A stretch of 54,731 nt of DNA from Candidatus Uhrbacteria bacterium CG_4_9_14_3_um_filter_41_35 (GTDB taxonomy: Bacteria > Patescibacteriota > Patescibacteriia > UBA9934): assembly GCA_002791275.1 (NCBI GenBank), contig PFWT01000025.1, forward strand, positions 1 to 54,731, given 5' to 3'. Position 1 is the stretch's first letter; each line of letters opens with the position of its first letter. The notes beneath the pieces were generated by a model, which saw only the letters and a list, made by a program, of their open reading frames with translations, did not search any database and was not told where the DNA came from. Positions 31,984 through 34,895 of the stretch are shown here, piece by piece. Made by a program: the position numbers and the translations under genes.

Positions 31984-32940
31984 TTAGAAGGCCAGAACAA
32001 AATGTTCAAGTGCCAAAGTTACATTTCCATTATACCTCAATGATAGCTCAGTTTCACCTATTGCCTCAAGGACTTTTGCCCAGTCCCTTGCTGCGCTTAT
32101 GTGTACAAGTTCCCCAATCCTTGCCGGTCGGTTTGAATAGCTCAGTAAATGTTCGCAATTCTGGCTAAATAGTAAGCAATCGTGAGCAATCGATCGCCAG
32201 ATCGCTAATTGTTCCTGAAGTTCTGTTTTTGACAAATCTTTAGCGATTTTTTCCGCAGTCTCTAGCCTGGTAGCGAGTGGAGCTTTTAAAAAATTGAATG
32301 CTTCTTCCAGAGCGTCACTGTAAGCCTCCCGTTTTTCTTTGTCTAACAACTCTTTTGCGATCCCTGGCCTGCCCGCGGAAATCCCCGCCAGCTCGTGCGC
32401 TGTCTCTTTAATAAGAGTCGTTTCAAGTTCCTTGCAAATTGTGTCCCGTGCTACCAACCCAAACCTTAGGTGCACCACTCTCGATAAAATTGTTTGCAAA
32501 AGTGCTTCCGGCCTGTTTGCTACCAAAATTATTAATGTCTTTCCGCTCGGTTCTTCGAGCGTTTTGAGTAAGGCATTTTGTGCCTGTGTGTTCATAAGTT
32601 CGGCGTTTTCAATAATCGCTACCTTGGTCCCGCCAGAAAAAGATGATAACGCCAGGCGCTGAGTGAGCAAGCGAATTTCTTCTACTCCGATATAATTTTT
32701 ATACTCTTTCTTCTTTTTATCAAAAGCTTTTTCGGCAAAAATAACTTCCGGGTGCGATCGTAATTTTTGAACATCTATTTTTAGTAGATTTGCCACAAAC
32801 CGCAGAGCAACCAATGTTTTTCCTAAGTGTTCATCCCCGGAAAAGCAATAACCATGCGCTAATTTATCCGCTTCTAGAACCCCTATTAAATATTCCTTCT
32901 GCACCTCGTGCCCAATAATCCCCGTAAAACCCTGATTCAT
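31984..32940 (-). CDS. holB: DNA polymerase III delta-prime subunit
   Basis: AHGYCFSGDEHLGK (degenerate P-loop), NALLKTLEEP and ILSR motifs. Confidence 0.8.
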   Translation of the reverse strand: MNQGFTGIIGHEVQKEYLIGVLEADKLAHGYCFSGDEHLGKTLVALRFVANLLKIDVQKLRSHPEVIFAEKAFDKKKKEYKNYIGVEEIRLLTQRLALSSFSGGTKVAIIENAELMNTQAQNALLKTLEEPSGKTLIILVANRPEALLQTILSRVVHLRFGLVARDTICKELETTLIKETAHELAGISAGRPGIAKELLDKEKREAYSDALEEAFNFLKAPLATRLETAEKIAKDLSKTELQEQLAIWRSIAHDCLLFSQNCEHLLSYSNRPARIGELVHISAARDWAKVLEAIGETELSLRYNGNVTLALEHFVLAF

Positions 32941-33097
32941 ATAGCCCGATTATAGCACAGAAGCAACGTTCAACAAAGCTTTTTTACTGGTTATTTAGTA
33001 GCAATTTATGTCTAGGTCTCAGTACAAAATTGCCGAAAAAATGCCAAAAATTACCTAACATTGGTAATTTTATATGTTGAATATTGCATAGCTCAAC

Positions 33098-33126
33098 TTG
33101 ACAAAGCTTTGAAAATATGATATATT
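33098..33126 (+). promoter_or_regulatory. near-consensus sigma-70 promoter of the orphan small-ORF unit
   Basis: TTGACA (33098-33103), 17-nt spacer, TATATT (33121-33126) with TGa just upstream. Confidence 0.6.
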
Positions 33127-33183
33127 ACTTGGTCGTTTAATGATGACTAAAACTGCTCTTAAAAAAGAGCTGGAGGTGAAAAC

Positions 33184-33291
33184 ATGAATATCAAAAAGCC
33201 GTTTTTTAATATTCAAAAACTCACAAAGTTCCTGACCGTCCACCACAGGGCGAATGGACATTCAATTATTTACACCAATCTGGAGGAATGA
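33184..33291 (+). CDS. putative 35-aa peptide (MNIKKPFFNIQKLTKFLTVHHRANGHSIIYTNLEE)
   Basis: GGAGG (33172-33176) lies 7 nt before the ATG. Hand translated. There is no homology evidence. Confidence 0.3.
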   Translation: MNIKKPFFNIQKLTKFLTVHHRANGHSIIYTNLEE

Positions 33292-33296
33292 GTTTT

Positions 33297-33395
33297 ATGT
33301 CTTTGACAATCTCGGAGGAGAGAGTTGGGACTCATGATATTCAAGTGCCTGGACTCGGCCTCGCTGACTCCATGCACACACCCGAATATCTCTGA
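33297..33395 (+). CDS. putative 32-aa peptide (MSLTISEERVGTHDIQVPGLGLADSMHTPEYL)
   Basis: GGAGG (33282-33286) lies 10 nt before the ATG. The SD sits inside a 14-bp long-range inverted repeat. There is no homology evidence. Confidence 0.3.
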   Translation: MSLTISEERVGTHDIQVPGLGLADSMHTPEYL

Positions 33396-33486
33396 AACAT
33401 ATCACTGCTTGCAGTGATCACTGGATCGCGTTGGGCTAAGCTTGACAGCTCGACCTCCAGATTGGTGAGAGTAATTATTATAGTTT

Positions 33487-33522
33487 AAAAAAACCGCCGG
33501 TATTATTACTTGGCGGTTTTTT
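33487..33522 (+). terminator. intrinsic terminator of the small-ORF unit
   Basis: A-run, stem AAACCGCC..GGCGGTTT, then T-run. Confidence 0.7.
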
Positions 33523-34135
33523 GTTATTACTGTTTTACCAAAGCGAACGACAATGTGGGTCGAAGGATCTCCTTCGCCCTGTGCTGAACCGACATTTGCT
33601 TGGTGATTCGGTAATGAGATTCTTCGGTGTGATTCACGTTCACCTCTGAATGACGGTTTGGTTAGATTCTTCGTCGTGGTTCACGCAGGCTCTGGCACCG
33701 CTCTCATCATAACGCCACATGACGCCTCGATCGGCTTCAAGTGGTAAATCAACAAGCAAGCAAACAGACACTCTGTTTTGCAACCTTAGACCCAGCTGGG
33801 GTCTTTTTTTATACACACCCTTTTCGGGCGAATAAGACATTATCCAAAACTACACCCTCTCTAACAACCTGGACCTATATTTACGGTGTACTGCAACATT
33901 TAGATTCTTTGCCATGGCTTACATCAGGCTCAGAATGACGGTTTAGTTAGATTCTTCGACGTGATTCACGCCAAGGTCTGAATGACGAAGCGATAAGATT
34001 CTTCGACGTAATTCACATCAATCTCAGAATGACGGTTTGGTTTATTTGGTGTAATTGTATTATTTTGACCCGCACCCATACCGTCATCCTGAAGCGAGCG
34101 CCAGGTTACGCTGAAGGATCTCCTGCGTTCTTTAT
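33522..34135 (+). repeat. composite intergenic repeat, copy B (about 2.3 tandem units, interrupted)
   Basis: 47-bp subunits start at 33617, 33664, 33902, 33949 and 33996. 34032-34058 is identical (27/27) to 54614-54640. 34051-34127 repeats the start of the copy C unit. Confidence 0.85.
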
Positions 34136-34139
34136 TGTA

Positions 34140-34895
34140 TCAAAACCCACTCAACCTCTTCACCTCTTGCCACGCTAACTCAAGTGTTGCTCGTGCGGTG
34201 TCTGCGATTGCTTTTGAGGTTATTTCAATAGCTATTATATTTTCCGCGTACGAAAATAAAACTAGTCTGTCACCAGCTACTGTCATTTCACCCGGGGTTA
34301 TAAACAAACTTGGTGAGATCTGAAGTATTTCAATATTTGATAAATTACCCGTCGTAACCTCTCTGTCGGTTACTAAAATCGAACGAACGTGCGTTTTAGT
34401 TTTTATAGATTCTTTACGATTTGATTTTTCACTGTCGCCAAGCAGTTTTAAAAAATTATCGTAGCCCACAATTTGTAAAATATCATCCCCTCTTTCTTCA
34501 AACTCACGGCGCATTAATTGCAGTCCATCAAGGGTTTCAATATACCTGATTTTTGGGGCCGAACTACCTGTTGACTTAATTGCTTGTAAACTAAGTTTTA
34601 AATCATCCGCAAGTTCAATTTTTTCTTTTAAAACATCGGCCTGAATTTTTAGAGCTGTCACCAACCTTTCTGGAGGCTCAGCTGTATAGTATCGCTCCTC
34701 ACCTTTTTGTATAAAAATAACTAAACCTTTTTGCTTTAAGGTTTCCAGCACATTATAAACTGTTGCTCGATTAATATTAGATTTTCGAGCAATTACAGTA
34801 ACGTTTGCTTTTCCGAGCTGTAAAAGCGCTAGGTAAACTGCCGATTCTTTTTCGGAAAACCCAAGCTGTTCTAATCTACTTATTAAACTCTTCAT
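34140..34895 (-). CDS. TrmB-family transcriptional regulator
   Basis: N-terminal LGFSEKESAVYLALLQLGKANVTVIARKSNINRATVYNVLETLKQKGLV winged-helix motif. Confidence 0.8.
   Translation of the reverse strand: MKSLISRLEQLGFSEKESAVYLALLQLGKANVTVIARKSNINRATVYNVLETLKQKGLVIFIQKGEERYYTAEPPERLVTALKIQADVLKEKIELADDLKLSLQAIKSTGSSAPKIRYIETLDGLQLMRREFEERGDDILQIVGYDNFLKLLGDSEKSNRKESIKTKTHVRSILVTDREVTTGNLSNIEILQISPSLFITPGEMTVAGDRLVLFSYAENIIAIEITSKAIADTARATLELAWQEVKRLSGF

What the first reader, a model, noticed from the sequence alone, without database searches (positions are those of the whole stretch)
33098..33522. Orphan transcription unit with two SD-preceded mini-ORFs and a 14-bp long-range inverted repeat that sequesters the second SD
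A near-consensus promoter and a strong terminator bracket about 390 nt with no ORF of 60 aa or more on the transcribed strand. Two mini-ORFs (35 and 32 aa) each follow a GGAGG at proper spacing. CACCAATCTGGAGG (33273-33286) covers the end of ORF1 and the SD of ORF2. It is perfectly complementary to CCTCCAGATTGGTG (33454-33467), enclosing all of ORF2 in a loop of about 195 nt that also contains the hairpin ATCACTG-CTTG-CAGTGAT. Long-range SD sequestration is a hallmark of tightly controlled small-peptide mRNAs such as type I toxins. However, the peptides here are not hydrophobic, so the function is open. It could be a peptide precursor, a translationally coupled pair, or a purely non-coding RNA.
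Basis: seen in the sequence. Interest (0 to 1): 0.6.

Follow-up and report, generated by a model that had tools for sequence, protein, structure and literature searches.

The report
Conserved folded RNA gene, not peptides
The flagged stretch is a gene for a folded non-coding RNA of an uncatalogued family, kept at the same chromosomal spot across a whole order of ultra-small (Patescibacteria) bacteria; the two "mini-genes" and the "hidden ribosome site" are by-products of its fold, and its function is still unknown.

Summary

The repeat is the closing helix (P1) of a conserved structured RNA, core 33269-33471 on the + strand.
- A covariance model finds the RNA in 113 of 151 genomes of the order. 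That is an undercount.
- It nearly always lies divergent from holB and upstream of a convergent TrmB-like gene.
- On 59 copies, 92% of cells pair against 35-43% in slid controls, and 43 of 48 pairs show compensatory changes.
- No Rfam 15 family matches, and no paper was found.

The peptides do not hold up.
- ORF2's frame hits a stop inside P3 in 17 of 29 homologues.
- ORF1 sits in a lineage-specific leader and has no relative.
- GGAGG/CCUCC is a nearly invariant part of P1. It is not the ribosome site of a conserved ORF.

Two layouts exist among relatives. In 38 of 59 copies the RNA, single or tandem, leads orphan genes with extreme GC3. In 10 of 59, including this window, a terminator follows at once and there is no cargo. 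The fold still covaries among cargo-less copies, so the RNA probably acts on its own. Function is unknown.

This scan has reported the same locus type before on other genomes.

The parts
33098..33126 (+). Promoter: TTGACA, 17 nt, TG-n-TATATT (extended -10). Predicted transcript start near 33133.
   Evidence: 11 of 12 matches, TG present. The same TTGACA-17-TGn(-10) type sits 6-268 nt upstream of the RNA in 12 of 30 homologous loci.
33133..33263 (+). 5' leader of about 130 nt. It is lineage-specific and contains small hairpins and ORF1.
   Evidence: blastn to relatives never covers query positions 1-218. Leader length varies from 0 to about 260 nt among loci with a clear promoter.
33184..33291 (+). 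ORF1 (35 aa; strong SD GGAGGTGA, 7-nt spacing). Not conserved; coding status untested. Its stop codon lies just after the P1 5' strand.
   Evidence: No tblastn match in 153 fetched loci or elsewhere in the genome (best E 0.09, a chance hit inside another gene). No Pfam hit. Low Atlas recognition, best score 0.77.
33269..33471 (+). Core of the conserved structured RNA (covariance-model match, models R1 and R2).
   Evidence: 166 bits with R1 and 149 bits with R2. The reverse strand scores only 27 bits. The single-sequence fold reproduces the consensus helices.
33264..33286 (+). The inner CUGGAGG is nearly invariant in the family.
   Evidence: I2. Family pairs: outer P1 covaries freely, inner GGAGG/CCUCC is 42-57 of 59 identical.
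33454..33476 (+). P1 3' strand (CCTCCAGATTGGTG...).
33288..33335 (+). P2, a variable arm (AUGAGU.../...ACUCAU). It is absent from the smallest family members. It carries a second GGAGGAGAGAG box (33314-33324) preceded by CAAUCUC, which could also pair with the P1 3' strand.
   Evidence: ORF2 (33288-33395) runs through this arm and into P3.
33336..33390 (+). P3, a long conserved hairpin. It has a 7-bp base (GAUAUUC/GAAUAUC), an asymmetric loop (AA / ACACCC), GUGC/GCAC, UGG/CCA, an invariant 2x2 loop (AC/CU) and an apical CUCGGC-CUC-GCUGAC with an invariant G.U pair.
   Evidence: Every base-helix pair covaries. The G.U pair at 33357/33365 is GU in 58 of 59 copies, which fixes the strand.
33395..33426 (+). 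GAUCACUG. In this copy the outer helix is weak, with 3 of 5 pairs.
   Evidence: helices 5-7 are 94-98% paired in the family.
33428..33449 (+). P5, a variable hairpin that is absent from many relatives.
33488..33522 (+). Intrinsic terminator, 12 nt after the extended P1 helix (17 nt after the model match). It is A-tract/T-tract symmetric, so it could work in both directions. No alternative pairing with P1 was found.
   Evidence: I12. Terminators 0-22 nt after the RNA occur in 12 of 59 family copies.
31984..32940 (-). Flank: DNA polymerase III delta'-like gene (holB), divergent from the RNA. Conserved neighbour.
   Evidence: Pfam PF13177 at 3e-32. Best NCBIfam hit is TIGR00678 holB, below its cut-off. 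Synteny.
34140..34895 (-). Flank: TrmB-like winged-helix regulator gene, convergent with the RNA. Conserved neighbour.
   Evidence: Pfam PF01978 at 9e-19. Synteny.

Best explanation
The unit is a gene for a structured non-coding RNA, not a peptide mRNA.

Shown:
- A strong sigma-70-type promoter (33098-33126) and an intrinsic terminator (33488-33522) bracket a transcript of about 390 nt.
- Its 3' part (33264-33476) belongs to an RNA family absent from Rfam 15. The family is found through one order of Patescibacteria at a fixed site: divergent from holB and upstream of a convergent TrmB-like gene.
- The fold is a long closing helix P1, two conserved arms (P3, P4) and two optional arms (P2, P5).
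- GGAGG/CCUCC is a nearly invariant part of P1. ORF2 is an accidental frame through P2-P3. ORF1 lies in a leader found only in this lineage.
- In most relatives the RNA, single or in tandem, is the 5' leader of orphan genes with extreme GC3. In this genome and about a fifth of sampled copies a terminator follows within 0-22 nt and there is no cargo. The fold still covaries among those cargo-less copies.

Inferred:
- The RNA is a factor-binding regulatory domain. Its invariant internal loops in P3 and P4 would bind a protein or a small ligand. Its P1 would keep a CCUCC anti-Shine-Dalgarno-like strand either locked or free.
- Here it would work as a free-standing small RNA, about 55% likely, rather than as a switch for a downstream gene.

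The confidence given (0.85) is for the shown part: a conserved structured non-coding RNA gene of an uncatalogued family, not a peptide mRNA.
For: Conservation:
- blastn finds the core in 13 of 60 relatives.
- Model R1 finds one + strand copy in 42 of 68 genomes of the family.
- Model R2 finds it in 113 of 151 genomes and 48 of 55 genera of the order.
- A search with filters off finds it in two genomes that had scored negative.

Structure:
- RNAalifold on a plain MAFFT alignment of 8 copies gives 48 pairs, 25 with compensatory changes.
- On 59 copies, 92.3% of cells pair against 35-43% when partners are slid. 43 of 48 pairs change on both sides, and 0 of 500 shuffles reach the observed values.
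- The 32 top mutual-information column pairs are all model pairs or extend P1.
- The window's own minimum-energy fold gives the same helices.

Not coding:
- The ORF2 frame hits a stop within P3 in 17 of 29 homologues.
- A start codon follows GGAGG in only 20 of 57 copies.
- ORF1 has no relative.

Not a known RNA:
- No Rfam hit on the window at E up to 10 other than terminator look-alikes.
- No Rfam family recurs on 20 homologues.
- Five literature searches found nothing.

Context:
- Of 29 loci in the family, 26 have holB and/or trmB within 1.5 kb. The same neighbours recur in other families of the order.

Two layouts:
- 38 of 59 copies have no immediate terminator and a same-strand ORF with GC3 of 0.73-0.98 downstream.
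- 10 of 59, including the window, have a terminator and no such ORF.

Selection without cargo:
- In 13 copies with no such ORF downstream (some also lack an immediate terminator), at a mean identity of 52%, 92% of cells pair and 37 of 48 pairs show compensatory changes.
Against: - No expression data exist; the transcript, its ends and any processing are predictions.
- The function is not shown. No partner protein, ligand or target was identified.
- The covariance alignments are fitted to the model and so lean towards its structure. The MAFFT-based result and the slid controls lessen this concern.
- Related genomes are not independent samples, so the shuffle counts and the 2x2 association overstate significance.
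- In this copy the outer P4 helix is weak, with 3 of 5 pairs.
- A strong SD before ORF1 is unexplained. No genome of the same genus was available to test ORF1.
- Tandem copies and a 5'-leader position in most relatives fit a cis-acting element better than a trans-acting RNA.
Confidence: 0.85

Rival explanations
1. Cis-acting switch in this genome too. The RNA would be a riboswitch-like sensor, and the terminator at 33488-33522 would be its regulated gate. Read-through would run into the downstream repeat region and antisense to the convergent TrmB-like gene.
For: - Most relatives carry the RNA as a 5' leader, often in tandem as with known tandem aptamers.
- Terminators sit only 0-22 nt after P1, which is the usual geometry of an expression platform.
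- The convergent trmB-like gene is a conserved neighbour.
- Invariant internal-loop nucleotides suggest a binding pocket.
Against: - I found no pairing between the P1 3' strand and the terminator's 5' half that would exclude either.
- There is no + strand gene downstream. trmB lies 600 nt away behind a second terminator at 33788-33810.
- The downstream genes in relatives share no family.
Confidence: 0.15
2. Divergent housekeeping RNA. This would be the lineage's 6S-like RNA, binding RNA polymerase, which Rfam models cannot recognise. A much less likely version is its SRP RNA.
For: - Size is 165-225 nt, mostly one copy per genome in this family. It has a consensus promoter, ends clamped by a long helix, and is near-universal in the order.
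- RF00013 (6S) and RF00169/RF01854 (SRP RNA) find nothing in this genome or in 5 near-complete relatives.
Against: - The consensus is a branched junction, not a rod with a large central bubble.
- There are 2-3 copies, often tandem, in a sister family, and the RNA is used there as an mRNA leader.
- For SRP RNA: no GNRA/AGCA domain IV motif, and no Ffh or FtsY gene in the genome to bind it.
Confidence: 0.1
3. Dual-function transcript. ORF1 (33184-33291) would be translated into a 35-aa basic peptide, and ribosomes finishing at its stop codon would open P1, coupling translation to the RNA's fold.
For: - The SD GGAGGTGA is an 8-nt perfect match to the 16S 3' end, with 7-nt spacing and an ATG start. 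The stop codon lies directly after the P1 5' strand.
- One relative (L035) also has an SD-led 66-codon ORF in a long leader.
Against: - There is no homologue anywhere.
- Most loci with a mapped promoter have short leaders with no SD-led ORF ahead of the RNA.
- The leader is not conserved at the DNA level.
Confidence: 0.08
4. One reading: a tightly controlled small-peptide mRNA (type I toxin-like, or a peptide precursor) whose second SD is sequestered by the 14-bp long-range pairing.
For: In this one sequence, GGAGG lies in the helix and an ATG follows 10 nt later.
Against: - The ORF2 frame is broken in 17 of 29 homologues, and similarity is confined to the P3 nucleotides.
- The peptides are not hydrophobic.
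- Helices inside the 'ORF' covary as RNA.
- No antisense partner was seen.
Confidence: 0.02

Closest known systems
Orphan structured bacterial RNAs of unknown function, such as the raiA motif RNA (about 200 nt, own promoter and terminator); comparison from my own knowledge
   Same: A multi-stem RNA of about 200 nt with strong covariation. It is a discrete gene with a promoter and terminator, is conserved across a whole lineage, and has no known function.
   Different: No sequence or structure match to any Rfam 15 family, raiA, OLE, ROOL, GOLLD and HEARO included. It is confined to one order of Patescibacteria. In relatives it also serves as an mRNA leader.
Tandem riboswitch aptamers (for example the glycine riboswitch), and terminated riboswitches that also act as small RNAs (Listeria SreA/SreB); from my own knowledge
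   Same: In relatives it sits in a 5' leader, often as tandem copies about 10 nt apart. It has invariant internal-loop nucleotides and a terminator directly after P1.
   Different: No ligand is known. The downstream genes are unrelated orphans. No antiterminator was found. The window copy has nothing downstream to regulate.
6S RNA (Rfam RF00013)
   Same: Similar length, a strong promoter, 5' and 3' ends paired in a long closing stem, and mostly single copy in this family. The genome also lacks a recognisable 6S RNA.
   Different: No model match. The core is branched rather than a rod with a central bubble. Tandem and leader forms exist.
Type I toxin mRNAs with long-range 5'-3' pairing
   Same: A long-range helix that covers an SD-like GGAGG.
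   Different: There is no conserved ORF and no hydrophobic peptide. The helix is the closing stem of a conserved RNA fold.

Membership tests
Type I toxin-antitoxin mRNA | A small ORF encoding a hydrophobic, membrane-active peptide that is conserved among homologous loci | tested here: not met
   Neither ORF1 nor ORF2 is hydrophobic. The ORF2 frame is interrupted in 17 of 29 homologues. ORF1 has no homologue.
Type I toxin-antitoxin mRNA | An overlapping or nearby antisense RNA antitoxin gene | tested here: inconclusive
   Only weak promoter-like sites (9 of 12) occur on the - strand, and none lies inside the unit. There are no expression data.
6S RNA (RF00013) | Match to the family covariance model | tested here: not met
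   No hit at E up to 10 on the window region or on 20 homologues. No hit in the whole genome or in 5 relatives.
6S RNA (RF00013) | A rod-like fold with a closing stem, a large central bubble and a terminal stem | tested here: not met
   The consensus is a 3- to 5-way junction (P1, P3, P4, with or without P2 and P5) supported by covariation.
6S RNA (RF00013) | Binds sigma-70 RNA polymerase and templates product RNAs | not testable with these tools
   This needs biochemistry.
SRP RNA (RF00169 / RF01854) | Model match, and the domain IV motif (tetraloop plus conserved AGCA/GGA loops) | tested here: not met
   No model hit. The P3 and P4 loops do not carry the motif. A genome-wide motif scan gave only hits inside other contexts.
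SRP RNA (RF00169 / RF01854) | The partner protein Ffh (M domain) is encoded in the genome | tested here: not met
   PF02978 gives no hit. PF00448 gives only weak P-loop hits. There are no DTAGR-type GTPase motifs in six frames. The SecY control is found at 2.6e-98.
Riboswitch (cis-regulatory aptamer) | A conserved structured domain with invariant nucleotides in junctions and internal loops | tested here: met
Riboswitch (cis-regulatory aptamer) | Lies in the 5' UTR of the gene(s) it controls, and these share a function | tested here: not met
   The window has no downstream + strand gene. In 40 of 59 relatives an ORF follows, but the ORFs are unrelated orphans with no Pfam family. They share only extreme GC3.
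Riboswitch (cis-regulatory aptamer) | An expression platform whose pairing excludes the aptamer's P1 | tested here: inconclusive
   No antiterminator pairing was seen in the window. This was not analysed systematically in relatives.
Riboswitch (cis-regulatory aptamer) | Specific ligand binding | not testable with these tools
   This needs in-line probing or similar.
CsrB/RsmY-type protein sponge | The partner CsrA is encoded; there are multiple GGA motifs in loops | tested here: not met
   PF02599 was not found in this genome or in 12 relatives.
Any Rfam 15 family | A covariance-model match at or near the gathering score | tested here: not met

The most novel reading that the evidence does not exclude
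The RNA is a new class of sensor or effector whose closing helix is a built-in Shine-Dalgarno/anti-Shine-Dalgarno duplex (GGAGG:CCUCC, nearly invariant). By opening or closing P1 on binding an unknown factor, it frees a CCUCC strand. That strand governs translation of the lineage's peculiar GC3-extreme orphan genes: in cis where the RNA is their leader, and in trans where, as here, it stands alone.
Probability: 0.15. Interest if true: 0.85.

Novelty: categorically new. Interest (0 to 1): 0.68.

Why it matters
Patescibacteria make up a large share of bacterial diversity, yet almost nothing is known about their RNA biology.

This is an RNA fold with very strong comparative support. It is near-universal in one order, held at a fixed chromosomal site, absent from Rfam, and absent from the searchable literature. 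In relatives it is tied to a puzzling set of fast-evolving genes with extreme GC3.

The window adds a useful piece. A copy that has no cargo, ends in its own terminator and still keeps the fold points to a function of the RNA itself. It also gives the simplest construct for probing, pull-downs or ligand screens.

For annotation, the lesson is that SD-like GGAGG motifs and mini-ORFs inside such loci should not be called genes.

Tried and rejected
I used tblastn against 153 fetched loci plus the genome, Pfam and the ESM Atlas. All gave nothing for ORF1. For ORF2 they gave only the P3-encoded segment.
- Close relatives for a dN/dS-type test. There is no same-genus genome among the relatives. A metagenome scan with HolB returned nothing above 45% identity. 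A genome-collection scan with the TrmB-like protein gave 3 weak loci with no RNA within 1.5 kb.
- SRP RNA: rejected.
- 6S RNA: no model match and the wrong shape.
- RNase P RNA and tmRNA: both are present elsewhere in the genome.
- CsrA sponge: there is no CsrA.
- Pseudoknots: no mutual-information signal outside the nested structure. Invariant positions cannot show one.
- Conserved leader ORF ending at P1: not a family feature.
- Conserved mini-ORF after GGAGG: not present.
- Family outside the order: three weak class-level hits share only the P1 clamp.
- Literature: five searches found no description.

Full report
**Observation**

- A near-consensus extended -10 promoter lies at 33098-33126: TTGACA, 17 nt, TG-n-TATATT. 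It matches 11 of 12 positions and is the best site in 1.5 kb.
- A perfect 11-bp G+C-cored hairpin with flanking A and T runs lies at 33488-33522.
- The longest + strand ORFs between them are 35 aa: 33184-33291 and 33288-33395.
- CACCAATCTGGAGG (33273-33286) is perfectly complementary to CCTCCAGATTGGTG (33454-33467). The pairing extends to 23-nt arms.
- The hairpin ATCACTG-CTTG-CAGTGAT is at 33401-33418.
- The predicted transcript folds far better than shuffled versions: z = -8.3 for the whole and z = -6.7 for 33264-33476.

**Surroundings**

The unit lies in a 1.2-kb gene-free gap. On one side is a DNA polymerase III delta'-like gene (31984-32940, - strand, PF13177). On the other is a TrmB-like winged-helix regulator gene (34140-34895, - strand, PF01978). 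No Rfam 15 family matches the unit at E up to 10, apart from terminator look-alikes. No tRNA or tmRNA is present there.

**Relatives**

blastn of the unit against 60 related genomes hit 13 of them, always over window positions of about 33309-33423 and never over the 5' 220 nt. By eye, and then by RNAalifold on a plain MAFFT alignment of eight copies, the conserved block is flanked by the same long-range helix. That helix and three further helices show compensatory changes: 48 pairs, 25 of them with double changes.

Covariance-model searches then gave the following.
- Model R1, built from these eight copies, found one + strand copy in 42 of 68 genomes of the family, in 14 of 15 genera.
- Model R2, built from 29 copies, found the RNA in 113 of 151 genomes of the order, in 48 of 55 genera.
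- In a sample of the class, it was found in only 3 of roughly 147 genomes outside the order. Those three share only the P1 clamp.
- Prevalence is underestimated. With filters off, the RNA appears next to trmB in two genomes that the filtered search had scored negative.

**Structure**

On a 59-copy alignment, 92.3% of pair cells are standard pairs, against 35-43% when the 3' partners are slid by 1-3 columns. 43 of 48 pairs change on both sides. The covariation score is 0.665 against at most 0.13 in the slid controls, and none of 500 shuffles reaches any observed value (the 29-copy result is). The 32 best mutual-information column pairs are all pairs of this structure or extend P1, and no pseudoknot signal appears.

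The fold has these parts.
- P1 is a closing helix of about 20 bp. Its outer part covaries freely. Its inner CUGGAGG/CCUCCAG is nearly invariant and is followed on the 5' side by AGAGAG.
- P2 is optional.
- P3 is a long hairpin with an AA/ACRCCC loop, an invariant AC/CU 2x2 loop, and an apical CUNGGC...GCUN'AC with an invariant G.U pair.
- P4 has CAUAU and UCACUG around a small capped hairpin.
- P5 is optional.

The smallest members (about 141 nt) have only P1, P3 and P4. In window coordinates:
- P1 = 33264-33286 with 33454-33476
- P2 = 33288-33335
- P3 = 33336-33390
- P4 = 33395-33426
- P5 = 33428-33449

The invariant G.U pair, and the 27-bit against 166-bit score of the reverse strand, fix the + strand.

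**The peptides**

- ORF2: read in the frame of the window's ORF2, 17 of 29 homologues meet a stop inside P3. One-base indels occur in the P3 loop.
- ORF2: tblastn similarity is limited to the residues encoded by P3.
- GGAGG: a start codon lies 3-10 nt after the P1 GGAGG in only 20 of 57 copies. The resulting ORFs have 3 to 56 codons and are unrelated.
- ORF1: it lies in the 5' leader, which is not conserved. Among loci with a recognisable promoter, the leader varies from about 0 to 260 nt.
- ORF1: it has no match in 153 fetched loci or in the genome, no Pfam family, and low Atlas recognition.
- ORF1: its strong SD (GGAGGTGA, complementary to the 16S 3' end GGAUCACCUCCUUUCU) remains unexplained. 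No genome close enough to test it was available.

**Genomic context and two layouts**

In the family, 26 of 29 loci have holB upstream and divergent, and/or the TrmB-like gene downstream and convergent, within 1.5 kb. The same neighbours recur in other families of the order, where the gap is expanded to 3-6 kb.

In the sister family, genomes often carry 2-3 copies. Some are tandem with linkers of about 10 nt, and others flank genes. The ORFs that follow have no Pfam family and are unrelated to one another. They do share a strong codon periodicity, with GC3 of 0.85-0.90 against 0.38-0.49 in the adjacent holB.

Across 59 copies the layouts split as follows.
- 38 have no immediate terminator and a same-strand GC3-extreme ORF within 1.6 kb.
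- 10, including the window, have an intrinsic terminator 0-22 nt after P1 and no such ORF.
- 2 have both.
- 9 have neither.

These copies are related, so the numbers describe the data and do not test it.

Among 13 cargo-less copies alone, some of which also lack an immediate terminator, mean identity is 52%. Even so, 92% of cells pair and 37 of 48 pairs show compensatory changes. The fold is therefore maintained where there is nothing downstream to lead.

**What it is not**

- RNase P RNA and tmRNA are found elsewhere in the genome.
- 6S and SRP RNA models find nothing in this genome or in five near-complete relatives.
- The RNA is branched rather than rod-like, it lacks the SRP domain IV motif, and the genome has no Ffh or FtsY to bind an SRP RNA.
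- CsrA is absent.
- Twenty homologues scanned against Rfam at E up to 10 give no recurrent family on the RNA.
- Five full-text searches found no description.

**How it most likely works**

Shown by the sequence data:
- It is a discrete promoter-to-terminator unit.
- It is a conserved branched fold whose ends are clamped.
- It has invariant internal loops.
- It occurs both as a leader, sometimes tandem, and as a stand-alone gene.

Inferred:
- The invariant P3/P4 loops form a binding site for a protein or small molecule.
- The near-invariance of both strands of inner P1 goes beyond what pairing requires. One explanation is that the CCUCC strand must also be able to pair with Shine-Dalgarno sequences, which would force its P1 partner to be GGAGG. 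I could not test this.
- In the window, the terminator is separated from P1 and no competing pairing was found. I therefore favour a free-standing small RNA, at about 55%. A regulated terminator is about 15% likely. A 6S-like housekeeping role is about 10% likely, and it overlaps the free-standing reading rather than competing with it.
- The window also carries a second P1-5'-like strand (CAAUCUCGGAGGAGAGAG, 33305-33324) inside P2 that could compete for the P1 3' strand. Its significance is unknown.

**Relation to earlier notes of this scan**

Notes on other genomes describe a 182-nt RNA beside holB, tandem "GGAGAGAG-box" units, and a GC3-extreme orphan operon between holB and trmB in Uhrbacteria. 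I used them as leads.

I checked three points myself: the synteny, the tandem copies and the GC3 bias. I could not verify the taxon name "Uhrbacteria". The only support is one weak TrmB match to a MAG of that name.

**Verdict**

The peptide and SD-sequestration reading is rejected, and the non-coding RNA reading is strongly supported. The RNA is a stand-alone member of an RNA family that is not catalogued in Rfam or in the searched literature. Its function is unknown.

Noticed in passing
whole genome G000 and samples of its class and phylum: No signal-recognition-particle machinery was found.
- There is no Ffh M domain (PF02978).
- SRP54-type GTPase (PF00448) gives only weak P-loop hits in this genome, in 4 near-complete relatives, in 60 further genomes of the class and in 40 of the phylum. 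All 14 control genomes ring.
- There are no DTAGR-type motifs in six frames and no SRP RNA model hit.
- SecY is found at 2.6e-98, so the tool works here.
If this is real, loss of SRP and FtsY across Patescibacteria would be notable. I found no statement either way in the literature searched.
   Followed up: partly
window 33522-34135: Between the RNA's terminator and trmB lies a repeat-rich non-coding stretch. It has 47-nt direct sub-repeats at 33612-33684 and 33897-34063 and a second terminator at 33788-33810. Another first-reader note says the same element occurs at two other places in the window. It occupies the slot where relatives carry GC3-extreme orphan genes.
   Followed up: no
relatives, e.g. 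L064:2616-3443, L072:2250-3755, L071:3549-5021, L069:3710-4354, L062:3888-4757: The ORFs directly downstream of the RNA in most relatives have GC3 of 0.85-0.90 (up to 0.98), against 0.38-0.49 for the neighbouring holB. They have no Pfam family and no similarity to each other.
   Followed up: partly
L058:1501-1641, L059:1501-1685, L060:1501-1694, L061:1501-1643 (other families of the class): RNAs outside the order share only the closing clamp (…CUGGAGGAGAGAG … CUCACCUCCAG…) around a different interior. This suggests a reusable end module common to several RNA families.
   Followed up: partly
window 33102-33111 and 32973-32982: A perfect 10-bp palindrome CAAAGCTTTG overlaps the -35 element and the spacer of the RNA promoter. 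ACAAAGCTTT recurs 128 nt upstream, near the holB start (D6 and I18). It may be an operator; it was not seen in the promoters of other loci by eye.
   Followed up: no
window 33305-33324: CAAUCUCGGAGGAGAGAG lies inside P2 and nearly duplicates the P1 5' strand. With one bulged C it could pair with the same 3' strand (CCUCCAGAUUG). It is the only GGAGGAGAGAG in the genome.
   Followed up: partly
L035 (oriented), leader upstream of its RNA copy: An SD-led 66-codon basic ORF (AAAGGAGGA…ATG) sits in a 262-nt leader and ends 41 nt before the RNA. It is the only other long leader ORF seen, and it is not clearly similar to ORF1.
   Followed up: no
window 33123-33138 and 33504-33519: A direct repeat, TATTACTTGGTCGTTT / TATTACTTGGCGGTTT, links the transcript start region and the terminator's 3' half (D2). 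It may be chance.
   Followed up: no
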